Assembly (NCBI RefSeq): GCF_009914755.1
Contig: NC_060938.1
Length of the DNA: 64,000 nt
Direction: 5' to 3' (one strand)
DNA from: the human T2T-CHM13v2.0 reference genome, Homo sapiens
Made by a program: the position numbers and the translations under genes. The notes beneath the pieces are model-generated. The model saw nothing but the letters and a program-made list of their open reading frames with translations, made no database searches and was not told where the DNA came from. This document shows positions 8,831-57,100 of the stretch, piece after piece; the stretch's first letter is position 1, and each line of letters opens with the position of its first letter.

Positions 8831-11060
8831 GACCTCTTCTGCTCTTGGCCGGCCCCAGCCAGCGGGGCCGAGGGGAGGACAGGCTCCCTCCACGGGGGTG
8901 GGGCGCACACCCACCTCGTTCCTCCTGCTGGAGCCCGCCCTGTCCGTGTCCCTCCCCCTCCCAGGCAGCCTGCCTGGAGGTAGCAGTACCCTCTGTGCTC
9001 CGGACCCAGGCAGATGTGAACTCCCCTCACTCCACAACCACCAGAGACAGCCCGGGGCAGACCCTGTCCAGCTCCTGCCCCAGGGCCTTGAGCACATTAC
9101 CAAATGCTCTGTGCCTGTTTCCCCATCTCTGCAAAGGGTGCTAACGGCCATCTCAGAATGGCTCGTTGAGATTCAAAGTGTCTTGTAAATGGTTGTTACA
9201 ATTGCATGGAAGGTAAACTGAGGCCCAGAGGCCCCAACACCACAGAGCCACGTCTACTCACCAGCCCCCAGCCCCCACCACTCCCCGCACAGTGTCCTCC
9301 ATCATGCTGTGGGTTTTGGAGGTGCAGAGGGCACCCAGCTGGGAGCTCGAGGCAGGCTGAGCTGTACACAGTGGTGTGAATGGGCGTGCATGTCATGCAA
9401 GGCAGTGTGCTGTGTGCCCTCCACGTGTGAAGGTGTGTGCCTGTGTGTGAGTGCTGGTGTGAACATGTGTGTGTACCCTGTGCTCATGCAAGTGTGCATC
9501 GTGTGTATGCTGGAAGCAGTGTGTGCGCGCACGCATACTCTGGGCAATCCACTCCTCGGGTGTGGTGTTGTGTAAACAGTGGAGGTCTCAGATGCCAGTC
9601 CCTGGGGACACTGGGCCCCCGCCCCAGGTTTGGCTGGCCCAGCTTGTCCCCTCCCCTGATCAGCCCTTGCCAAGGAGTGCTTTGCCATCTGGGGGCTAGA
9701 GGGAGTTGTGGTGGGTTCAGCGCCCTGCAAGGGCAGGCCTGTGCCCTGAGAGCAGATGGTCCCCGGCTTACCCTCCAGGCCAAGAAGTCCCCCAGCTCAG
9801 GTGACAGCAGAGCCCAGGAAGGAGGGCCAGCCAGGTCAGCCAACCCCAGGGAACCCCCCACCCCGACGGCGCTGGGCACTCAGGATGGGGGACTCCGCAG
9901 AAGCCTTAAGGACTGACAGTCCAGGGAGCTGGGGTCCTGCCGTGCAGACACACTGGGGGACCCAGGTCTGCAGGGACTCGCTGCAGAACCAGGAGTCCCA
10001 GGGCACACGAGCCTCCCTGCCCAGGTTGCTGGCAAGCCCCTGGGGTGAGTGGGGGCCCAGCTGCCCCGCCCTGAGCAGGCTCAAGCCCGCTTCCCAGATC
10101 CCCCCTGAACCCACTGCCCGCGAAGCAGGGTAGGAGATGGAGCAGGGGACCACAAACTCACAAACTGAGACCTGTCCCTTCACCCTGGGCCCAGAGACCA
10201 GGCAGACCACTTCCCACCCAGACCCAGAGCCCAGAGGGGTCTCATGGGCTGGCCCACCCCACCACATCCCCGTATGGCCTCCGCCCTGACAGCTCCCGAA
10301 GGCCAGGGATGCTCCCTCCCCTGGTGTGGGGGGCTGGGATGGGTGAGCCAGGGCCCCCACCCACCCCTAGCCTTGTCGCTCCTGCCGCAGGTTCCTCAGC
10401 ACCTGCCCATCACAGCCTGCTGACTGACAAGGACCCCATGCTGCAGGAGGCAAGCTGGGGCCCAGGAGGGACCGCAGCCCCGGGAGGCTCCTCATTCATT
10501 CACATCTCCACCAAAGAAGCCCCACGGCTGCCCAGTGCCAGACCTGGCCTGATGCCTGGATGGCTGCCACTGGGATGATCAGGGTCAAGTAGTGTGGGCC
10601 TTTGAGCATCCTGGAGAGGGCGGGGAGGCCTCTAGAGGCACCCAGGGTGCAGGTCTGAAGAGGGATGGGCTCAGCTGGCCAACACACGGACACCTTGGGC
10701 CTGGCCTCCACTTCTCCCAGCCTGGCTGCCCACACTCCCCACCCTAGCAGCGGGCAGTGTCTGGCGCACCAGTCCTGCTCCCCCTGCTGCCATCCTCCGG
10801 GGGATGGTGTCCTTGGGCCCTAATGGGCTTCAACTGCCCATGGAAGCCCTGCCAAGGTCCCGACTTGCAGCCTCCTGGCGGGACCAATGTCCTCTCCAGG
10901 CCCTTCCTGCATGGACCAGCCCCCAGGGGCATTGCTCCAAGCCAGCAGCCCCTCTGCCCTGGCCTGCAGCCCTCCCAGCGCCTGCTCCAGGCTTGACCTC
11001 TCCCTCACCTTCTCCTCCTTCAGCTCCTATCACCCAAGGGCACAGAAAGGCACTGTCGCA

Positions 11061-11074
11061 CCACCAGGGGGCGC
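11061..11074 (+). promoter_or_regulatory. CTCF consensus core CCACCAGGGGGCGC
   Basis: Exact match to the canonical CTCF core motif; binding is not shown by sequence alone. Confidence 0.7.
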
Positions 11075-13169
11075 CCTGCCTCAGGGGCGGGCTTAGGACA
11101 CAGCAGTGCTGCTTATCTGGGAGCCCAGGGGCTGGGGACAGAAGAGGCTAACTGACCTCTGGCTGGTACCTTCCGGGCTTCAGGACAACTCAGCCAGGTG
11201 GTCACTGTGGGCCCACTCCCCAGATGAGGAAACAGGCCAGAGAGGAGGATGCCACCGGCCCTGGCTCTTGGGAGTGGGAGGTCTGTGTCTCCAGGATTCC
11301 TCCAAGCCACCAATTTGGGAAAGTCATCTGACCTCTCTGGGCTTCCGTTTCCCCACCTGTACAGTGGGGGTGGGAAGGCATCACTGCTGGGGCTGAGCAT
11401 GGGACTACAGGACAGAGCTTGGGGCCCTGGCTCCAGCAGGCTGGTCTCCAGCCCCTGGGAGCAGGGACCCACCCCACCCAGCACAGGTGCCTAAAGGCTG
11501 TTGTCTCCGCCAGCAGGTGACCCTGCACCCATGGGTGGGGGTCCACAGGGCCAACTCAGCCCTGCACCTGCCAGCTGAGGACAAACTCTCCTGGGGAGCT
11601 TTTGGGCTGTGGCCAGAACAAGCGAGGCTGCCTTTGAGCGGCTGCCTTTCTGCTTTCTGCTGTGTGCGTGTGTGAGCATATCTGTGTGTGCCAGGGGCCT
11701 GGGCTCGGTGTGACCCCTAGCAGGGATGCCCCAGCTGTCAACACCCTCTCCCTCCTGTGGTCCCCACTGGCCCCAGATGGAGGCCGAGTCCCCCAGCCCA
11801 GAGCGCCCCGGGGGTCGGGAGTGCCCACTGCTTTGAGCCACAGAAACCCAGGCCCCAACCTCCTCAGGACCCCCAGGCCTCCTGGGCCACCAGGATGCAA
11901 ACCCCACCTCCAGGCAAGGTGGAAGCCCATTTGGCAGCTGAGGCCCTGGTGCCTGAGGCCATCAAGGGAGGTCAGAAGGGACAAAGGCCACGGCTCGGCC
12001 GAGAGGAGGGTGCCGTCCGCTCTGCTCAGGCACTGGGCCGGGTGCCAGCAGCACCACGTTCCCACGCTCTATGGTGCCAATCTTGGCACCCCAGCCCTGC
12101 CCCACCCTTGCCTTGCAGGGACCAGGGCACCGGGAATGTGGCTGTGGATTCCGCCCCCTGGGGCCACGGATTCCTGTCTCAGTGGGCGGGGGTGGAGGAC
12201 GGCTTTCCACCCTTTGATCCTTGCCAGTTCCAGGGAGCGAGGCCACGCCCAGGCCCTGCCAGCCAGGCCACAGGGGAGGCCAGGAGGCAGGCCCAGGCGA
12301 GACAGAGCTGACTCCCTCAGCTCAGGAACCCCAGCTCCCAGGGCCTGGGCCTGCTCCCCAGGTGCCCCAGAAGCTCCTGCCTCACCTCTTGCCAGCTGGG
12401 CACGGGGCCTGGTGCCCAGACTAATCGGGCAGAGACCAGCACTGGGCAATGGCCCAGTCCCCACCTTCAGCCTGTGATGGCCACAGCAACCCCTTCCCTC
12501 ACCTCCCCAGTCTGCCACAGGGCACAGAGTCCCAGCCCCTCTCCGCCAGCCTGGCCTCACATGCTCACCCTCCTGCCCTAGCACCCCCCATTCGGCAGCC
12601 ACAACTGCCCCACCCAGAGACTCCTGGGCGCCTGGTGCTGTTCAGGACACTGGCCTGCTCAGCATCAAGACAGATCCCAGAATGTCCTGGGCTTCTGACC
12701 ACAAAGGAGCCAGCATAGGCTAAAGCCTGGCACGCGGCTCAGAACCCTCAACCCTATGTGCTTGTTTCCTGCTCCCCCAGCCTCTGGAGCCGGCTGACAG
12801 CTACCCCCTCAGTACACCTTCATGCGTCCCCGACCCCTGTTCAAGCACCACTGAGCACCCCAACCAGTGGACAAGGGGACAAGGGGTCCCACAGGAAACA
12901 GGACCACCCTCTGAGCCTGGGGGAGGGGAGAGCAATCTCAAAATCCCACGTGGGAGGGGCCCAGGGCCAGGAGTCCAGATAAAGGAGGGGCCCAAGGAAG
13001 GGTCTCGCCCGGGCTCCTGAGAGGCAGGAGGATGGCTCCACTCTGCCAGCCGTCCTGATCTGCTAAGTGGAAATTACAGTCATTAGCGTCCCCTCCCAGA
13101 GGCCCGTGGTGCCCTGTGGGCCTGGAACTTGCCCCACCCCCTCTGCCACATATGGCCCAGGGAGAAGGC

Positions 13170-14480
13170 GCTAAAGGTGAGCGCCGGCTGCAGGGCGGAG
13201 GACTCTGGCCTCTGCGGGGCCGAGCCACGGAGCCACCTGGCTTGCGGGGATCCCTGGGACCCAGCCTTGTTCTACTGCCCACTTGACGCGGCGGGCACCC
13301 TCCTTCCTGGTGGGTCCTTACTCCCAACCCTGGCCTGGCCATGGGATTGCCAGGGTCTGGTGGGGGGGGGTCCCTTTCCAATGGGGCGCCTTCCTATGCA
13401 GACAGAGGAGAGGGGAGTGGTCAGGCTGGGTCCTCAAGGTGCCCAGACAGGGGTGCGAGGAGGCAAGTGCTCACCGGAGCAGCCAGGAACGCTCCCTGGA
13501 GGAGGGGGCCCGGAAGCTCCCTGGCTGCAAGAGTGGATTCCTGAGCAAAAGCTCCGCGGGTGGAGAAAGAGAGTATGGCGGGGGCCACGGGGGTCCGAGT
13601 CCCGACACGCGGCTGCGCACTCGCTCCCCTGCACCGCGGGCGGGGCTGGGGCCGGAAACGCGCGCGGCGGCCTCGGATTCCTGCGCGGTGGGACAAGCCC
13701 GCGCCTGCGCGCCGCCCGGACAGGGCACGTCGCCCGCGAGGGGGGTGGCGGGCCCAGGAGGAGGGGACCCCGACAGCCCCTCACCGCCTGCCGGGGCGGG
13801 CCGCCACGCTGGACGGGGGCAGCGCGGGGCGGGGTCGGGGGGCGGCAGAAGGCGCCTTTGTGCGTCGCGTCCCCGAGCGTGTCGCGGCGGGCCCGGCACC
13901 GGCCCCGCTCCAGCGCCCGCCCCCGGCCCGCGCCCCGGGCCCCGCGCGCATACCTGGCGAGGCCACGAGGGGATTCTGCGGGCCGAGCCCCGCCTGGGCT
14001 GCGCCGCCGCAGGCGGGAGAGGCTGAGGATTCTTTTGGGAAGCCCCTCCGCCGGCTGTAACCCCAGGGCCGTGCCACCCTCCTGATCACCGCAAGCATGG
14101 ACCCCCCAGCACGCTGCGGGTGGGACAGGCAGGGCCCCTGTGGGGTGGCTTGGCTGGCCTGGAGTTGGGGACGAAGTCCCCGGGCTTGGTCCCCCGAGGG
14201 CTTGGTTGGGCGTCCCGGGGTAGGTGGCTGCCGCGGCGATGTGGGCGGCTTGCGTGTGGCCGATCGGGGTCGCTGCTGAGCCCCGGAGAGCGGAGGGTCC
14301 AGGCTAGGCTGGGGGAGCGAGAGGCGAGGGCGGAGCCGCGGAGGTGTGGGCGGCTTTCGTGGTCCGAGAGGCCCCAGGTTCCCGGCAGGGCGGGGAAGGC
14401 TGGGGCGGGGCCAGAGCCGGAGCCGCGAAGCCGCGATGGAGAGGGCCTGGAGGGTGCGCCAGGAGCCGGCGTCAGGGCCT
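13170..14480. promoter_or_regulatory. CpG island 2, candidate promoter of a non-coding transcript
   Basis: Dense CpG, multiple GC boxes, no supportable CDS. Confidence 0.75.
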
Positions 14481-14920
14481 GCCTCCATCTCCTCCAACTC
14501 CCACCCCATTTATTCCTGTAACAAATCCCTACCGGGAGCTGGCACAGCAGCTGTGCGCTGGGGACACACGAGATGCTCACCCTCCCTGCCCTCCAGGAGC
14601 TTGGACTCAGCTGAGGTCTGCAGGGGCCAGCAGGAGCAGGGCCGAGGGCCCTGGTGGGAAGGTCGTGGCCCACTAGGGAAGGCTGGGCCCGGGGGGTCAG
14701 GTGGAGGGCAGGCTGAGCTGCGAGCTGTGTCTTCAGCCTGCAGCAAGGCCACCACTCCCAGCGCCTGGCCTCCTCGCTCCCGAAAGCTCAGCTCAGCCTA
14801 CATGTGCCGACCCCTCTGTCCCCCAGGCCCAGGTTGGGCACTGGTCAGGACGGTGCTCCCAGAGGGACCCAGTAACAGGAGGAGCTAGGGTGAGAGCATG
14901 AGGGTGGGGGGAGCGGCAGA

Positions 14921-15010
14921 GAGGAGGGAGAGGCAGGAGGTGCTCAGGGCAGGAGTGTCTGGAGTGAGGAGGGAGAGGCAGGAGGTGCTCAGGGCAGGAG
15001 TGTCTCGAGT
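14921..15010. repeat. 45-bp tandem duplication at the edge of an L2 fragment (L2 about 15010-15250)
   Basis: gaggagggagaggcaggaggtgctcagggcaggagtgtct(g/c)gagt x2; L2-like gggcattccaggcagaggg and ggggagccattggag follow. Confidence 0.85.
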
Positions 15011-15281
15011 GGGTCTGGACAGGAACAGGAAGGGCATTCCAGGCAGAGGGGCCCAAAGAAGCAAAGGTGCACCAGGGAGAAATGCCCGCTGTGCTCCACC
15101 ACAGTGGAGGTGCAAACCTCAGCATGGAAGATGAGGCTGGAGGGAGGGGCCTGGGCTGGAACATGGCCAGGATGGCAGTGGGGAGCCATTGGAGATGTTT
15201 GAGCCGGGGAGTGACAGGGTCAGATTCGAGTTTTGGAAAGATAACATCTTGAGCCATTAAACAGATTTCTAGGATTTCAGG

Positions 15282-15537
15282 TTTATTTATTTATTTATTT
15301 AGAGACTCACTTCACTCTGTTACCCAGGCTGTAGTGCAGTGGTGCGATCTCTGCTCACTGCAATCACTCAAGGCCAAGTGATTCTCATGCCTCAGCCTCC
15401 TGAGTAGCTGGGACTACAGGCGTGCACCACCATGCCCAGCTAATTTTTGTATTTTTAGTAGAGGCGGGGTTTCGCCATGTTGGCCAGGCTGGTCTCGAAT
15501 TCCTGGCTGGGATTACAGGCGTGAGCCACCACGCCCT
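15282..15537 (-). mobile_element. Alu with internal deletions
   Basis: Antisense Alu consensus. Confidence 0.88.
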
Positions 15538-16464
15538 GCTGGATTTTGGATTCTTGATACGTATCATCAACCACTCTCCAGAGTTTGGCCAGCTTCACGC
15601 TCCATCAGTGGTCTCACCATAGACCTTCTAATCTTGATTGTGTTGGCTGGTGTCTATTTTCTAATGGTGTTTGGTTTTGGAACCTGCATTTCTTTGAAAA
15701 AGAGTGAGCATGTGCATTTTCCCAGATGCCTGGTATCCAACTGCACTTCTCCATGTGTGCATTGTCCCCTGAGCTGGCAAGAAGATCCTACTAGTTGGTC
15801 TGCATGCCATGCCAGCTCGGCCTTGCACCCTGGGGGCCCAGGTAACTAGCTCTCACCAACAGAAAGAGATGTGATGGACATCACCTGAGGCCAGACCCTA
15901 AGACCTCTGTGTGCCCCCTCCGTGTCTCCTGTCTGCAGCTGTTGTCCACACCAAGGGTGGCCTACAGAGGGAAGTGAGGACCTTGGGACTTCCTCCAGGA
16001 CAGCCCTCGCTGTCCAAATCTCCACCTGCTGCAGAGCTGCCTCCAGTCAAGCCCTTGTTTCCAGCTTTCTGTGCCCTAAATAAACTTCTGCTGGGATTGA
16101 GCCATCAGCATTCTGTGGTGGGCGTCGCTGCTGCGAGGTTGCCCTCGTGCACACAAGCTCCTCACAGGTAAAGGTGATCTGCCTGTGGACATACTTGTTA
16201 CAGAAGTTTCCCACCTGCTGTGCGCATCTTGCCTGTGTGCAGTCACCATTCTTTATGCAGTTGGTGCCTCCATCTGCTCCTGTGTGGTTTCTTCTTTTGG
16301 TTCCTTTATTATCTCTCTTTTGGTGCTGTTTCCCAGGGACTTAACTGCTGGAAGTTTGATAAATCCTCAACTCTCAAATTCACCCTTTTCTATAGATTTA
16401 AACAGACATTGAATGTTTCACCTAGCATTGGGGCAGAAGGAAGGTGCAGGCTCGGCCCTTGGCC

Positions 16465-16879
16465 CTTCTCAAGGGTGTGAGATCAATTTGGCCGAGAAGG
16501 GCGCCCTGAACGTCAGGCTGCTTGTCAGGAAGCGCTGCCAGGCCCAGTGAGATGCGGAGATTCGGTTGCGAACACCCGGCCTGAGCCTCGGAGCAGCACT
16601 CCAGGGTGAGCGAGGGCTGTCCCGGAGGAGGACAAATTACACCTTTTCCCCAGTTCCCTCACAACAGGACCATGCCTAGTCCTTGAGGAATCGGGGGAGG
16701 GATGTAATTTGTCCTCCTCCAGGACAGCCCTCGCTCACCCTGGAGTGCTGCTCCGCGGCTCAGGCCGGGTGTTCGCAACCGAATCTCCGCATCTCACTGG
16801 GCCTGGCAGCGCTTCCTGACAAGCAGCCTGACGTTCAGGGCGCCCTTCTCGGCCAAATTGATCTCGCGCCCTTGAGAAG
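16465..16879. repeat. Near-perfect inverted repeat, arms 16465-16641 and 16703-16879
   Basis: 177-bp arms, 173/177 complementary, no gaps; the 61-nt spacer is partly self-complementary. Confidence 0.97.
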
Positions 16880-18959
16880 CTCCAGAATGAGTCTGAGAAG
16901 CCTCACCGGGGCTGATACATCCCTCCAAGGTGGGGGTCGGGAGACTCCCTGGCCAGGGGAGGCCTCCCCTGGGCCAGCTCCAGGCTTTGCCAGGCCCCCT
17001 TGGAGCCTGCACCAGCCGTGCCCACCAGGCACAGGCCAGCACGCACGGAGGCTGGCAGGTCTGTGAGCCCAGGATTAGGGGCCCACAGAGGCAGACCCAG
17101 GGGTCCTGGAGGTCACAGACAAGGCCGTCAGCTTCTCTGAGCCCGTGCAGCCTGGCCCTGGCCCACCAGGCCAGCCCTGTGTGGGTGCGTACACCACCCC
17201 CATCCCGGGGGCCACACCCCACCTGGCTCCCGTCCCATGGCTGCCCCAGGGAGGTCTTCCTCTCTTCTCTGCCCACAATTCACCCTCTCCCTGAGCCCTC
17301 TTCTCTCACCTGGGATCTGATCTTTCCTCCTGGACACTCATGATGCCCACAGCTTGGTCACCAGCTCTGTGCTAGAGATCCTGACAATCCCTAAGCCCCT
17401 TCCCCAGCCTCGGTCTCCCCATCCCGGGAGCAGGGCGGTGATGCCACCCTGTACATGCCTCTGTCCCCAGCCCCGGCTCTTCTCCAAAGTGCGACGCGGG
17501 TATCCAGTGGCCTGGGACCTCCATCTCTCAGAGGCACCCCTCCCCTGGCAGTTCAGGCTCAGGAGCCACCTCTTTCCCTCCGTCTCTGATCAATTCAACC
17601 TCCTAAACGTCTATCCACTCTGAGCCCTACCGGCCCCTACTCCAGTGCTGACTCTTCCTCACCTGTCCCATTCCTGGCTCCCCAACTCACCTTGTCTCCA
17701 TCCTGGCTGCCAAGAGAGCATCTCAAACACACATCTGACATGCCCCCTCCTCTGCTCTGAAGCACACACACCATTGCTCCCCAGTACCCGCAAGATCAAA
17801 CCCAAGCTGTTGTTGTGGCCACAACCTCAATAGAGCCCACACCCCGCCAGGCTATGTCTGGCTATTTACAGGTCCGCCCACCCGGGTTCTGTGCCCCACA
17901 CTGAAACTCAGGTGTTACTGCTTCTGCAAACCCTGTCCTGCCTCTGCCCCCTTCTGAGTCCCACCCAGCTCTACCCCCTCCTTTGTGCCCCCGACCCGGC
18001 CTGTGTCTGCATCAGTTGAGAAGCCCTTGCCTCTCTGGCCTTCCCCGGCTGGGTTTCAGGGCCCTGCCATTTCAGCCCCAAGCCGGAGTCAAATACTGTG
18101 TTTCCCCAAACCACAGCAAGGAGAGCCCTCACCAAGAGCCTGCAGAATGAGATGCTCAGCCCCTGTCTGGGATGCAGCCTCCCAGAGAGGCGGAGTGACT
18201 GGCTTGGTGTCACACAGCACATCCAAGTCCCAGGTAGCTAAACAGAAGGGAGGAGCCCTGGGCCTGTGCCCTTCAAGTCGTCCTGGAAGCTCAAGCTGCC
18301 CTCTGGGCTCAGGGAGCCGACTCCATTCCCTGCAGGTCCAGCCCGTCCCCCTGCCTCCCAACCCTCTACAACACACACACGTACACACACACACCTGAAG
18401 CAGCTTGGTTGAGCCAGGCATTAGACAGGCAGGCTCCAGCACGCCCTGGCATCCTGGCCCAGTGGCTGGGAAGATCCCTGACAGGCCTGGTCAGCACCCG
18501 GCATCTCAGGAGCTCAGGCCCTGGAGGTCTGAACAGAGAGCACCAGCACGGCCCACTGACCTGTGACTGAGCTGTAGGGCCAAGGGGCCAGGGCATCCTG
18601 TCCCTGAACCACGTAGCCCAGCAGGGGAGGGGCTGCCACAGGAAGGCCAGGTCCCAGCATTGCTTATGGGGAGGGCAGAGGGGGCCAGGGCAGCTCAATG
18701 CAGCGCTGGGCCAGCTGGGGTGCAAGGCAGGCCTCGAGGGGCCATGACACCTGCCACGGCCCAGAGCCTCCCCTAGGCCTCCAAACTGCAGGAATGTGAG
18801 CACTGGAACCTGGCAAGCACGGCCAGGGCAATGGTGGGCACCTCCCGCCAGGCCCCTCCACACAGGGCTGAATGGCACTCTCTAGCCCAGTCTTCTGACA
18901 TGGCCTGGAAAGAGATTTCAGGTTGCTTAGTTTTTTGTTTTTGCTTTTTTTCCCCCATA

Positions 18960-20496
<1,537 letters not shown>

Positions 20497-20519
20497 CCAC
20501 CACTCATTCTTAACCTCTT

Positions 20520-20985
20520 CTTCTTTGCCTTTCTCTGTTGCAGAGTCCTGGAAGTTAAATGCTCTATTTCCCAGCCTCCCTTGCAGCTAGGAGCAGTCAT
20601 GTGACTCCATTCTGGCCAACGAGATACAAGAAACACTTGCTGACAGGTGCAATCAGAAAGCGTTTGCTTTTCCAGTAACATGTAGGACCAGTCACCTTTT
20701 TGCATTTCCCCTTTCTTCTTGATTCGAACATTGCATTGCCGTCATGTTTGGAGATGAGTCAGCCATCTTGCAAATAGGAGGCAGCAAGACTGAGGGAAAT
20801 GCCATCCTGCTTCAGAGGGCAGAATGGAAAGAGAAGCCTAAGATGGCAATGGTACGGTTGGGCAGCTGAGTCAGGACTGGGGCCACTGCCTCTCAGTTTC
20901 AAGGGAGAAAAATAAACCCCTGTTTGTTGGCCTCATGCTAGGTTGGATTTTCTTTTACTTAAAGCCAAGACATTTCTAACATACA
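20520..20985. mobile_element. MaLR LTR (MLT1-type)
   Basis: ttcccagcctcccttgcagctagg...catgtgact...tctggccaa, cagccatcttg, aataaacccc. Confidence 0.7.
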
Positions 20986-21124
20986 AAACCAGACACATGT
21001 GCATGCCACACGTACATCACAAGTGATCACATGCTGTCCGACTAGCACCTCGATTTTTCCACTGAACCATCAGTCTTGCAGATCATCCTTTATCAGTGCC
21101 TGGCAACTTGTCTTGCCCTTGTTT

Positions 21125-52339: not shown

Positions 52340-54110
<1,771 letters not shown>

Positions 54111-57100
54111 ACAAGCACAGATCGTATCGTATGGACTGCACCTTGCCTAAAAAAATTTCAATTGTGATAAATACACATAAAATATCTCTCTTAACCATTT
54201 TTTTTTTTTATATGCAGTCTCGCTCTTTCGCCCAGGCTGGAGTGCAGCGGCCCCATTTCAGCAATCTGCGGCAATGTGCTTGCTCCGTGAACCTGCGCAC
54301 TGCCCTGCGAGGCCCCACAGCCCGGTGGCCTCCCCCGTGGTGGCCTTGTCTGGTGCCTGGTCCATGCCATGCGTGGCTGTGCAGCTGCAGCCCTCCTAGG
54401 CCTGGGACCCTCGCGGCTGGCGCTCCAGGTCGCTGCACCGAAGGGCACCTGCATTGGAAACTAGTGGCTTTGCCGGGCGCCTTCCCAAGGGACTGGTGCA
54501 TTTGCCTTCCTTCTGCAGGGTCTGCACCCCACCCCCATCCCACCATCCACAGTGGGCAGGGGCGCTCGTTCTGAGGGGCTCGCCGCACTAGCTCACCACA
54601 CAGTCCGTTCTCTTTCCCCCTCGGCGGGGCATCTGCCTGTGGCTTCGGAAGGTTTCCGTTTCCCCAGGCCTTACCGTGGCGCCAGGTTCCCAGCCTGCAG
54701 CCGGTGGGCCCCTCGCTTGGCCGGCTCGGGTCTTCACTTAGCTCAGAGAAATGCTCTCTTTCATGTAATGTTCTCACCTCCGTCTGTCCCTCCCTTTCCC
54801 TCTGCAGCTCCTGGTACTCAGAGGCTGTGTCCCGAGTCTCCTCTCCCCGTCCCCGGCTCCAGGCCCTCGTGTGAGTCTCGGCACCCGCTCCCTTCCCCCA
54901 ACCCCCGCGCCGTTCTTCTGTTCTGCTGCCCGGTTGATCTTTGGGACCTCAGGGATCTAGCTCCGGAAAGCCATTTTGTGCCGCACTTTGATCACGTCAA
55001 ATGAGCATCTTTGACGATGAGCCAAGCGCCTGGCCACTCCTCTGCGCCTGCACGCTGTGGGTCCAGGCAGGGCCTATCTCTGGCTACCGAGCCCCTCAGG
55101 GCTGTTGTGGCCTCGGGGGCTCCTGGCCTCCATGATGAGTGTGTCCTTGCCAGCTGTCGGGGTCAGGCCCCCTTGGGCCACCCCAAACCTGTGATGGACA
55201 AGGAAGCGACCTGGCCATTCCATCAGAGCAAGGATGCCGGATGCTGCAGCCCCAGAGGCCTCTCGACAGCTTTTTCCAGCCCCTCCGTGCTTCTAGAATC
55301 CTCCTCACCATTTGGGCTTCCTTCTTCCGCAGAAGGCTTTCAAGCAGACGCTTCCTGGTCCCCAGTTCGACAGCAGGATAACAATATTGCTGCAGAACAG
55401 GTGACCCCCACAGGCCACACCTTCTAGCCTAGAGCGAGCTTCCTAGGGCCCCTGCCTCTGCCCCTACACGTGCTCCACAGCGCCACTCTGCCCAGAGGAG
55501 AAGCCCCCGGTGCCGCCTAGCTGCCGCCCTGGCCCCCTGGCCCAGAGCCGCACTGACACCACTGTCCCCAGCAAGCCCTCCCGTGGCTCCATGCCTCCTG
55601 CCGGCTGCCCTCCTCTCAGAACGCCACCCCAAGACTCACATCCTAGCCCCTGAATCCACCAGGGCTGGGGAACCATGAGGAATGTCACAGGGCAGGTCCC
55701 ATCCTCCCGGGCCTCAGTTTCCCCTTTTGTATAAAGGTCTTCAAGTCCTGGCATCCAGATGCTGTCCATCCGAGACCTCACAGGTCCCTGCTGACCTCAG
55801 GGGCTCCTTGGAAGACCCTGGGTCTGGGGGTCTGATGGGGAAGGGGTGAGCCCTGTGGGTCTTGGGACAGCTGGAGTTGGGCCTGTGGCCACCATGAGGC
55901 CCACACCACCCAGCTGCTGCTGCCTGGCCTGCAGGGGTTAATGGGTCTGGCCCCCCCAGGGACCAGGCTCCTTTGTGGAGCCTCCTCTCTGCACCCTGGG
56001 GCCTGGTTTCTTCGGAGACGCAGCTGTCAGAGCTGTCGCCAAGCAGAACCAGCAGACGCAGTCCCAGGGGCCGAACAGCAAGGACGCAGCAGGGGACCCT
56101 GGCAGCAGTGGGTGCGGGAGGTGCTGCTTCACCACCTGAGAGGGGCTCTGCACCCACAGCAGGCCCCTGCCATGACTTGGTCCCAGGCTGGGTCAGACAG
56201 CGCGGTCAGGACGCACCCCTCGGGCCAGGCCAGGCAGGGCCGACCCTTTGCTCCCTGCTCTGACGGTGCAGAATGAGAAGAGGCAGGAGTCTCCGGGGCA
56301 TGTGCGCACATGGCCCCGCCCACGCCGTCTAGCCTGCAGGTTGGCCTTTGTGCACAGGTCACTCTGCCTGGAAAGTGGTGGCAGGGGTGGTGGCACGGCT
56401 CCCTGTAACCCTCTGCCTGAGTGAGCGCCTGCTGCCCAGGGCCGCCTCAGCCAGGCACCCCCCGGGGCTGCAGTGGCCACCTCAAAGTTCCCTCTGCATC
56501 CAGACCCTTCCCATCCGAGCCACAAAGCCAACAGCCATGTAGCCTCTGGGCCCAGCTGGGAGCAGCTCCAAAGTGTGGGGAACAGGCCCTGCCCCGCCAG
56601 TCGCCGGCACATGCCTCGGAGCCTGGTGTCCCCCAAGCTCACTGCCCACCAGGCTTGGGGAGGCCCAGGTGCTCATTTTGGGGACATGTGCCCCAGTGAC
56701 AGAGGAGCTCTCCCTCTGTACGGCAGGTCACAGCCCCAGACCTGTCAACAGGAAGAGCAAAGAGTGGAGGCAGCGGGGAGACTGGCCGTTGGGGGCCCCC
56801 GCTTCATGGCAGTGCAAGACACAGCGGGCTCCAGGAACTTGGCAGCCAGGACGGGTAGCAGGGCACGCCTGCGTGTCCTGAGGGGCAAACAGGAGTGGCA
56901 CAGGTCCCAAGCCCAGCGGCCAGAGTAGGGGTGACCACCGGGGTTCCTGCAGCCACAGCCAGAGGGGCCCCAGGGGCCTAGCACCAGCCTGGGGGTGCCA
57001 GGGAGCCTGCCTTTCTTCGCTAGATTTGCTGACCACACAGCGCCCTCTCTGGGGGCAGCCACTCACCCACCCACCCACCCACCCACAAGGGAACAAGGCT

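What the first reader, a model, noticed from the sequence alone, without database searches (positions are those of the whole stretch)
16465..16879. Near-perfect 415-bp non-Alu hairpin downstream of an orphan CpG island
Seen: arms 16465-16641 and 16703-16879 are 177 bp each, ungapped, with 4 mismatches. Two of these are G:U pairs in a plus-strand RNA, and three are CpG-type transitions. The 61-nt spacer also folds (ccttttcccc/gggggagg, cctca/tgagg, aggac/gtcct), so the whole segment can form one stem. The arms are GC-rich, keep about 13 CpGs, and match no repeat I recognise. Known: long near-perfect dsRNA is a substrate for ADAR1, Dicer (endo-siRNA), MDA5 and PKR, and closely spaced near-identical inverted repeats are unstable in mammalian DNA. 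Inference: the repeat is either very recent or homogenised by arm-to-arm gene conversion or selection. If transcribed from the CpG island 2 kb upstream it would be a hairpin-RNA locus. I recall a lncRNA (LINC02298) annotated near here, but this is unverified.
Basis: partly seen in the sequence, partly recalled or inferred. Interest (0 to 1): 0.82.

Follow-up and report, generated by a model that had tools for sequence, protein, structure and literature searches.

The report
Single-copy inverted duplication in lncRNA intron
A unique 415-base stretch inside an intron of the non-coding gene LINC02298 is an almost perfect back-to-back inverted copy of itself that would fold into a long RNA hairpin, but nothing seen here shows that it does more than ride along in the intron.

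Summary
Arms 16465-16641 and 16703-16879 are 177 nt, ungapped, with 4 mismatches. The RNA folds into about 200 bp (-451.8 kcal/mol, z -37.7).

The arm has no other long copy in T2T-CHM13. It is not masked as a repeat, has no target-site duplication and reaches no Rfam threshold. It is therefore a local inverted duplication, not a MITE or Alu pair.

It lies in intron 3 of LINC02298, 298 nt past exon 3. The "orphan" CpG island is that gene's annotated promoter.

Four differences, three of them CpG transitions, fit neutral decay over roughly 2-30 Myr, using rates I recalled. Homogenisation is therefore not required. No primate orthologue was available, so age and concerted evolution are untested.

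Unexpected: a 21-mer occurs in the genome only in exon 3 of the host and in the two arms.

Most likely this is a replication template-switch or fold-back product, transcribed passively and probably ADAR-edited. It belongs to the catalogued class of sparse non-repetitive dsRNAs enriched near chromosome tips (PMC11838218). Interest is modest.

The parts
16465..16641 (.). Left arm of the inverted duplication (177 nt, 11 CpG, GC 61%)
16642..16702 (.). 61-nt asymmetric centre. It folds as an imperfect small hairpin with an 8-nt loop. It is much less symmetric than the arms and has 1 CpG.
16703..16879 (.). Right arm (177 nt, 13 CpG, GC 62%), 98% complementary to the left arm
16168..19256 (+). Intron 3 of LINC02298 (NR_110546.1), which hosts the hairpin. 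The hairpin starts 298 nt after the exon 3 donor site.
   Evidence: (RefSeq rows) and the annotation given with the finding
15991..16011 (+). 21-mer in LINC02298 exon 3. It is identical to right arm 16715-16735 and is the reverse complement of left arm 16609-16629 with 1 mismatch. It occurs nowhere else in the genome at <=1 mismatch.
13300..14700 (+). CpG island holding the LINC02298 start (14546) and a RefSeq hESC enhancer element (14077-14699). It is the likely source of transcription through the hairpin.

Best explanation
This is a single-copy, local inverted duplication, not a mobile element. A 177-bp piece of LINC02298 intron 3 was copied in reverse orientation 61 bp away.

The most likely cause (inferred) is one replication error: template switching or fold-back (snap-back) synthesis. 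It may have been primed by the small imperfect hairpin that now forms the centre.

The arms are still 98% alike mainly because the event is young on an evolutionary scale, roughly 2-30 Myr. The age and the lineage are inferred, not shown.

Because it lies on the sense strand of an intron, it is transcribed passively with the pre-lncRNA and forms a stem of about 200 bp. Its expected fate (inferred from general knowledge) is nuclear A-to-I editing by ADAR and decay with the excised intron. I assign it no dedicated function.
For: - Structure is shown.
- Single copy: the 233-nt and 177-nt arm queries hit only the two arms in the 3.1-Gb genome. Both flanks are also single copy.
- No masked_repeat row between 15553 and 19477.
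- Sharp outer ends with no duplicated target site.
- Rfam gives only generic sub-threshold miRNA-hairpin hits, best mir-3179 at 43 bits against a gathering score of 90.
- It is intronic on the + strand of an expressed lncRNA.
- Identity drops from 98% in the arms to a barely significant centre. That fits a newer duplication around an older small hairpin.
- Mismatch spectrum: 3 CpG transitions and 1 other, against an expected CpG share of 0.65-0.68 under neutral decay. Point ages are 6-12 Myr.
- Template switching is documented to create perfect hairpins in one event and to expand imperfect inverted repeats (PMC10710096, abstract and passages; PMC13100816, abstract).
- Non-repetitive predicted dsRNAs are sparse, about 2 per Mb, and enriched within 3 Mb of chromosome tips (PMC11838218 section 9). 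This locus is 1.82 Mb from the chr14 q end.
- A second local inverted duplication carrying unique sequence lies in the same window.
Against: - No orthologue, second human assembly, RNA-seq, editing table or small-RNA data could be consulted. Age, mechanism, transcription across both arms and editing are therefore all inferred.
- The template-switch hairpins in PMC10710096 have stems of 30-55 nt, so 177 nt would be an unusually long event.
- I saw no clear microhomology at the junctions.
- The arms are CpG-rich (o/e 0.68 and 0.78) while both flanks and the spacer are CpG-poor (0.13, 0.20, 0.20). A plain young copy of ordinary intron does not predict this.
- The genome-unique 21-mer shared with exon 3 is left unexplained.
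- Matches in closed parts of the reference are not shown, and the genome search misses short matches. The exon 3 21-mer was not listed.
Confidence: 0.58

Rival explanations
1. An old palindrome whose arms are kept alike by recurrent arm-to-arm gene conversion or template switching. GC-biased repair would restore CpGs, while the centre, which is outside the converted tract, decayed.
For: - CpG o/e is 0.68 and 0.78 in the arms, against 0.13 and 0.20 in the 300-nt flanks and 0.20 in the spacer. The change coincides with the arm ends.
- The centre still folds slightly better than chance, as a decayed older core would.
- Template switching between imperfect arms is reported to homogenise and expand inverted repeats (PMC13100816, abstract).
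Against: - CpG-dense 177-nt patches (>=11 CpG) are common in this region: 6.6% of positions in the window and 72 patches in 264 kb. A CpG-rich source segment is therefore not remarkable.
- Four differences fit plain decay.
- Conversion cannot be seen in one haplotype.
Confidence: 0.22
2. A functional hairpin-RNA (endo-siRNA or long miRNA-like) locus. Small RNAs cut from the left arm of the plus-strand hairpin would be antisense to a 21-nt site in exon 3 of the host lncRNA and would regulate it.
For: - A stem of about 200 bp in a transcribed intron.
- The 21-mer at 15991-16011 is found only there and in the two arms, genome-wide, at <=1 mismatch: 3 of 3 hits, 0 for the reversed control.
- The longest k-mer shared between hairpin and shuffled +-3 kb flanks reached 16 in 1 of 300 shuffles, mean 10.6.
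- Intronic sense-strand hairpins are where young miRNAs arise (PMC10710096).
Against: - No small-RNA data were available.
- No RefSeq miRNA gene is annotated here, and all Rfam hits are far below gathering scores.
- Vertebrates are reported to lack long miRNA hairpins (PMC12553114, abstract in the search listing).
- From recall, human somatic Dicer handles long dsRNA poorly.
- The flanks of the 21-mer show no homology to the arm, unlike hairpin loci born from their targets.
Confidence: 0.06
3. A foldback or MITE-type transposon, or a piece of foreign (for example viral hairpin) DNA, inserted as a unit.
For: The palindromic shape, the CpG-rich arms in CpG-poor flanks, and the absence of a donor copy in the genome.
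Against: - Single copy.
- No target-site duplication.
- Not masked.
- The 21-mer scan of viral contigs gave 0 hits, though that blank means little.
- The ORFs have no Pfam family and no homologue.
Confidence: 0.04
4. An assembly artefact or a variant private to CHM13.
For: Only one assembly could be read, and palindromes can arise from chimeric long reads.
Against: Four arm differences and a 61-nt asymmetric centre are not what a fold-back read artefact gives. That is an inference. Nothing was tested directly.
Confidence: 0.04

Closest known systems
Non-repetitive predicted intramolecular dsRNAs of the human genome (dsRNAscan; Andrews & Bass preprint, PMC11838218; sections 7, 9 and 10 read)
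   Same: An inverted, highly paired, non-repeat-derived stem inside a gene locus, with a loop under 100 nt, lying within 3 Mb of a chromosome tip, where that class is enriched.
   Different: Whether this locus is in their catalogue could not be checked, because it is a web resource and the supplements are closed. At about 200 bp it is below their >300 bp 'long, highly paired' set of 2,018.
Template-switch mutation hairpins in primates (Monttinen et al. 2023, PMC10710096; abstract and passages read)
   Same: One-step creation of a perfectly paired inverted copy next to its source, often in sense-strand introns, where it is transcribed with the host.
   Different: Their hairpin class has 30-55 nt stems. 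This one has 177-nt arms. The defining evidence, absence in an outgroup and a four-point switch path, was not testable here.
Long, nearly perfect inverted duplicated sequences in pre-mRNAs (Barak et al. 2020, PMC7006430; abstract and passages read)
   Same: A near-perfect (>96%) inverted duplicate in a pre-RNA, of the kind reported to be depleted, weakly expressed and sometimes heavily edited.
   Different: Their 'long' set is >300 bp (197 in human RefSeq transcripts) and mostly repeat-derived. This one is shorter and unique.
Hairpin-RNA (hpRNA) endo-siRNA loci of Drosophila (PMC10317233, abstract in the search listing; mouse oocyte hairpin siRNAs recalled)
   Same: A long inverted-repeat transcript with a complementary site in another RNA.
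   Different: Those loci share extended homology with their targets and have abundant siRNAs. Here only 21 nt match, and no small-RNA evidence exists.
Large sex-chromosome palindromes with arm-to-arm gene conversion (recalled)
   Same: Near-identical inverted arms around a unique spacer. GC-biased conversion is one possible reading of the CpG-rich arms.
   Different: Those arms are kilobases to megabases long and carry genes. Conversion has not been shown here.

Membership tests
MITE / foldback DNA transposon | Many dispersed copies in the genome | tested here: not met
   The 233-nt and 177-nt arm queries hit only the two arms (the latter at E<=10). No masked_repeat row overlaps the hairpin. 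Caveats: closed regions are not shown, and no Dfam library was available.
MITE / foldback DNA transposon | Target-site duplication flanking the terminal inverted repeats | tested here: not met
   The bases outside 16465/16879 and outside 16460/16884 are not direct repeats of each other.
Canonical pri-miRNA | Stem of about 35 bp with an apical loop, and a match to a described family | tested here: not met
   The stem is about 200 bp. The best Rfam hit is mir-3179 at 43.2 bits against a gathering score of 90. No RefSeq miRNA gene lies in the window (annotation given with the finding).
hpRNA / endo-siRNA locus | A long inverted-repeat transcript | tested here: inconclusive
   The fold and the sense-intron position are shown. 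A transcript spanning both arms was not observed.
hpRNA / endo-siRNA locus | 21-22 nt Dicer products loaded into Argonaute | not testable with these tools
   No small-RNA data were available. The 21-mer is printed in 0 papers in the searched library.
hpRNA / endo-siRNA locus | Complementary target | tested here: met
   Left arm 16609-16629 is antisense to exon 3 15991-16011 at 20 of 21 positions, and the right-arm copy is identical to it. This is complementarity only; regulation is not shown.
Template-switch mutation hairpin | An inverted copy adjacent to its source | tested here: met
   The arms are 61 nt apart and are the only copies in the genome.
Template-switch mutation hairpin | Absent in the ancestor or outgroup and explained by one switch-and-return path | not testable with these tools
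   No primate genomes were available. The flanks have no paralogue that could serve as an internal outgroup.
Gene-converting palindrome | Arms more alike within a species than between orthologous arms | not testable with these tools
   Only one haplotype of one species could be read.
ADAR-edited dsRNA region | A dsRNA of tens of bp or more in a transcribed region | tested here: met
   The longest uninterrupted helix is 123 bp, in an intron of an expressed lncRNA.
ADAR-edited dsRNA region | Observed A-to-G mismatches in RNA reads | not testable with these tools
   No reads were available, and editing catalogues and supplements are closed.
Palindromic AT-rich repeat (PATRR; recalled definition) | AT-rich near-perfect palindrome with no or a minimal spacer | tested here: not met
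   GC is 61% and the spacer is 61 nt.

The most novel reading that the evidence does not exclude
A young, primate-born hairpin-RNA gene nested in a lncRNA intron. Small RNAs from its 5' arm would target a genome-unique 21-nt site in exon 3 of the same lncRNA. That would be a self-targeting endo-siRNA or long-hairpin miRNA circuit of a kind not described in humans. The shared 21-mer would be either the selected guide/target pair or the scar of a second template switch at the same locus.
Probability: 0.06. Interest if true: 0.75.

Novelty: new member of a known kind. Interest (0 to 1): 0.33.

Why it matters
Unique, near-perfect inverted duplications in transcribed DNA are the raw material from which new hairpin RNAs can arise, including miRNAs, editing substrates and immune-sensor ligands. 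They are also potential sites of DNA fragility.

This one is clean: single copy, sharp ends, datable differences, and an expressed host. Ape T2T assemblies and pangenome data could show when and how such a structure is born and whether its arms co-evolve.

By itself, without expression, editing or small-RNA evidence, it is one more member of a catalogued class. It is intronic and under 300 bp, so it is unlikely to matter for cytoplasmic dsRNA sensing.

Tried and rejected
Mobile element. There is no second long copy, no target-site duplication and no masking. Rejected, with two caveats: no Dfam library was available, and closed regions are not shown.

Known RNA family. Rfam at E<=1 over 14000-21000 gave 18 rows. 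The 5 rows on the hairpin are all miRNA models at 25-43 bits against gathering scores of 74-91, which is generic hairpin resemblance. The rest are Alu/SRP-type hits or weak hits.

Exon 3 as a third, diverged copy of the arm. A loose alignment looked suggestive. With the 21-mer removed, however, the flanks score no better than dinucleotide shuffles, and the reverse-complement control behaves the same. Downstream, 42, 26 and 12 of 300 shuffles reached the observed score under three scoring schemes. Upstream, 261-283 of 300 did. Rejected.

Coding exon. The 127-aa and 160-aa ORFs over the right arm have 0 Pfam families at E<=1. The 127-aa ORF found no homologue: 10 candidates, none at E<=0.001, with 174 sample-only candidates left out by the tool.

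CpG-rich arms as proof of gene conversion or foreign origin. A control showed that patches with >=11 CpG per 177 nt are common here: 6.6% of positions in the window and 72 patches in 264 kb. Kept only as weak evidence.

Internal outgroup. The flanks 15600-16464 and 16880-18400 are single copy, so none exists.

Viral origin. The 21-mer scan of viral contigs gave 0 hits. That blank means little.

Literature. 17 of 17 papers naming LINC02298 were seen as a listing. Passages were read in three of them. In what I read, none mentions a hairpin, editing or small RNAs. The 21-mer is printed in 0 papers. Supplements of PMC11838218 (dsRNA tables) and PMC7006430 (Table S8) may list this locus; they are closed.

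Local baseline. In the window plus 20 stretches of 10 kb (264 kb in all), 3 inverted repeats had arms >=60 nt, >=90% identity and a spacer <=1000. Only this one has a spacer under 100 (one search missed it through a script error that one search corrected).

Full report
**Observation.** Arms 16465-16641 and 16703-16879 are 177 nt each and pair without gaps. Four positions do not pair: 16476/16868, 16478/16866, 16588/16756 and 16623/16721. An independent repeat finder reports the same pair, extended to 198 nt at 94% with 29 nt between.

On a plus-strand RNA the first two mismatches are G:U pairs. Three of the four are CpG<->TpG/CpA differences. The fourth is a T/G transversion beside a CpG. The arms carry 11 and 13 CpGs at 61-62% GC.

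RNA 16440-16904 folds to -451.8 kcal/mol on + (z -37.7) and -449.7 on - (z -39.4). None of 100 shuffles does as well. As single-stranded DNA it folds to -273.1 kcal/mol, z -35. Over 16460-16884 there are 200 base pairs in 425 nt. The longest uninterrupted helix is 123 bp and the loop is 8 nt.

The 61-nt centre folds alone (-27.8 kcal/mol) but only marginally better than shuffles: 3 of 200 on +, 8 of 200 on -. Its gapped self-complementarity was matched by 96 of 2000 shuffles. Identity therefore drops abruptly from 98% in the arms to near-chance symmetry in the centre.

**What it is not.** The arm has no other long copy in the 3.1-Gb T2T-CHM13 genome. A 233-nt query and a 177-nt query (the second at E<=10) hit only the two arms. 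Both flanks are also single copy. No masked_repeat row overlaps the hairpin; the nearest end at 15553 and start at 19477. The bases outside the arms are not direct repeats, so there is no target-site duplication.

Rfam gives only generic miRNA-hairpin resemblance far below threshold. The best is mir-3179 at 43.2 bits against a gathering score of 90. The ORFs across the right arm have no Pfam family and no homologue. So it is not an Alu pair, not a MITE or foldback element as far as these tools can see, not a described RNA family and not a coding fragment.

Three caveats apply. No Dfam library was available. Matches in closed parts of the reference are hidden. The genome search misses short matches: it did not list the exon 3 21-mer.

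**Context.** The hairpin lies in intron 3 (16168-19256) of LINC02298, on the gene's strand, 298 nt after exon 3 (and the annotation given with the finding). The CpG island upstream (about 13300-14700, GC 0.70-0.79, CpG o/e 0.67-0.93) contains the annotated start at 14546 and a RefSeq hESC enhancer element at 14077-14699. It is therefore the lncRNA's promoter region, not an orphan island.

LINC02298 is measurably expressed. It was detected by RT-qPCR and knocked down in osteosarcoma lines (PMC11513957, passages), and it appears in a differential-expression table for fibroblasts (PMC11456241, passages). The hairpin should therefore be transcribed as part of the pre-lncRNA. I saw no reads, so this is an inference. 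I saw all 17 papers that name the gene as a listing and read passages in three. In what I read, none deals with a hairpin, editing or small RNAs.

**How rare.** Among the 25 longest pairs shown (arms >=40 nt, within 2 kb), this is the only one with a spacer under 100 nt. Of the other 24, 23 are 71-90% complementary with spacers of 183 nt or more. The remaining one is 96% over 75 nt with a 716-nt spacer.

In the window plus 200 kb sampled nearby (264 kb), 3 inverted repeats had arms >=60 nt, >=90% identity and a spacer <=1000. Only this one has a short spacer.

Published genome-wide work puts it in a known class. Andrews & Bass (PMC11838218, sections 7, 9 and 10 read) predict 5.13 million dsRNAs. 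Non-repetitive ones are sparse, about 2 per Mb, and enriched within 3 Mb of chromosome tips. 31,017 are more than 96% paired, and 2,018 are both over 300 bp and more than 96% paired. This locus is 1.82 Mb from the q end of chr14 (length 101,161,492).

Barak et al. (PMC7006430, abstract and passages) find long, nearly perfect inverted duplicates depleted even from pre-mRNA, weakly expressed and sometimes heavily edited. Their human set is 197 structures over 300 bp and above 96% identity. This stem is about 200 bp and falls below both 'long' cut-offs.

**Origin and age.** Unique sequence, sharp ends, a short asymmetric centre and no donor elsewhere point to a local inverted duplication. I infer a replication template switch or fold-back synthesis. 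Such events are documented to create perfectly paired hairpins in one step. More than 6,000 hairpins are reported in primates, with stems of 30-55 nt, and the resulting miRNAs are mostly in sense-strand introns (PMC10710096, abstract and passages). Template switching is also reported to homogenise and lengthen imperfect inverted repeats (PMC13100816, abstract). The weakly self-complementary centre could have been the primer for the fold-back. That step is conjecture, and a 177-nt event is much longer than the published class.

For the age I counted 14 ancestral CpGs per arm and used mutation rates from memory (about 0.35-0.8e-9 per year at non-CpG sites and 3.9-8e-9 at CpG sites). Four differences then give point ages of 12 Myr (95% 3-32) or 6 Myr (1.6-15). 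The expected CpG share is 0.65-0.68, against 3 of 4 observed.

Plain neutral decay of a duplication born somewhere between the ape stem and the Old World monkey split therefore suffices. No primate genome, second human assembly or paralogue was available, so none of this could be tested.

**A point in favour of homogenisation, and its control.** CpG o/e is 0.68 and 0.78 in the arms, 0.13 and 0.20 in the 300-nt flanks, 0.20 in the spacer, and 0.28 for the whole intron. GC-biased arm-to-arm conversion would predict this. However, this GC-rich subtelomeric region is full of small CpG-dense patches. 6.6% of 177-nt positions in the window have >=11 CpGs, and there are 72 such patches in 264 kb. A CpG-rich source segment is therefore unremarkable. 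I keep the conversion model as the main rival at about 0.2.

**An unexplained detail.** A 21-mer in exon 3 (15991-16011) is identical to right arm 16715-16735. It is the reverse complement of left arm 16609-16629 except at the 16623 arm difference. At <=1 mismatch it occurs in the whole genome only at these three places: 3 hits, and 0 for the reversed control.

In 300 block shuffles of the +-3 kb flanks, the longest k-mer shared with the hairpin reached 16 once, with a mean of 10.6. Chance is therefore unlikely. The flanks of the 21-mer are not homologous to the arm, so exon 3 is not a decayed third copy. It may be the scar of a second short templated copy at the same locus. It may also be a guide/target pair: a plus-strand small RNA from the left arm would be antisense to the mature lncRNA. 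There is no evidence for the latter.

**Likely working.** This part rests on general knowledge and is not shown. An intronic 200-bp stem with a 123-bp perfect run is a good ADAR substrate and would be removed with the intron. It would rarely reach cytoplasmic PKR or MDA5. It is too long for canonical Drosha processing; vertebrates are reported to lack long miRNA hairpins (PMC12553114, abstract in the listing). From recall, human somatic Dicer is inefficient on long dsRNA. At the DNA level, a 61-nt spacer should, again from recall, make hairpin or cruciform extrusion and the resulting instability much less likely than for a spacerless palindrome.

**Verdict.** The feature is real, correctly measured and uncommon. 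It is a new member of a known, catalogued kind: a unique intronic inverted duplication that forms a dsRNA. Its origin and age are plausible but untested, and no function is shown. Interest 0.33.

The boldest reading the data allow is a young self-targeting hairpin-RNA gene, at about 6%.

Noticed in passing
window 15991-16011 (LINC02298 exon 3) vs 16715-16735 and 16609-16629: A 21-mer is shared exactly between exon 3 and the right arm, and with 1 mismatch, in reverse complement, with the left arm. These are its only occurrences in the genome at <=1 mismatch. There is no flanking homology, and shuffles never reached 21 (maximum 16 in 300). It remains unexplained.
   Followed up: partly
window 53283-53418 and 54135-54269: A second local inverted duplication: about 130 nt at about 95% identity with a 716-nt spacer. 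Its arms span an Alu tail, about 50 nt of unique sequence and the head of another Alu. It is therefore a copied segment, not two independent Alu insertions.
   Followed up: partly
window 13300-14700: The CpG island (GC up to 0.79, o/e up to 0.93) coincides with the LINC02298 start (14546) and a RefSeq H3K27ac-H3K4me1 hESC enhancer element at 14077-14699. Several RefSeq 'silent region' elements lie at 10982-14434.
   Followed up: yes
window 16465-16879 vs flanks 16165-16464 and 16880-17179: CpG o/e steps from 0.13 and 0.20 in the flanks to 0.68 and 0.78 in the arms, exactly at the arm ends. Similar CpG-dense patches are frequent in the region.
   Followed up: yes
window 15300-15442, 19496-19642, 20063-20209, 20380-20506: Sub-threshold Rfam hits to Metazoa_SRP, mir-1268, mir-3135 and mir-619. 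They fall in masked repeats and look Alu-derived. Two of them overlap LINC02298 exons 5 and 6.
   Followed up: no
window 16079-16084 (in exon 3): An AATAAA hexamer lies 83 nt before the exon 3 donor site. It is a possible alternative polyadenylation signal upstream of the hairpin (read).
   Followed up: no
LINC02298 locus (position not given in the paper): PMC11435283 (passages) mentions an MLT1 LTR element 'MLT1_14q32.33' located within LINC02298. I did not locate it. The RefSeq mask rows that I saw carry no family names.
   Followed up: no
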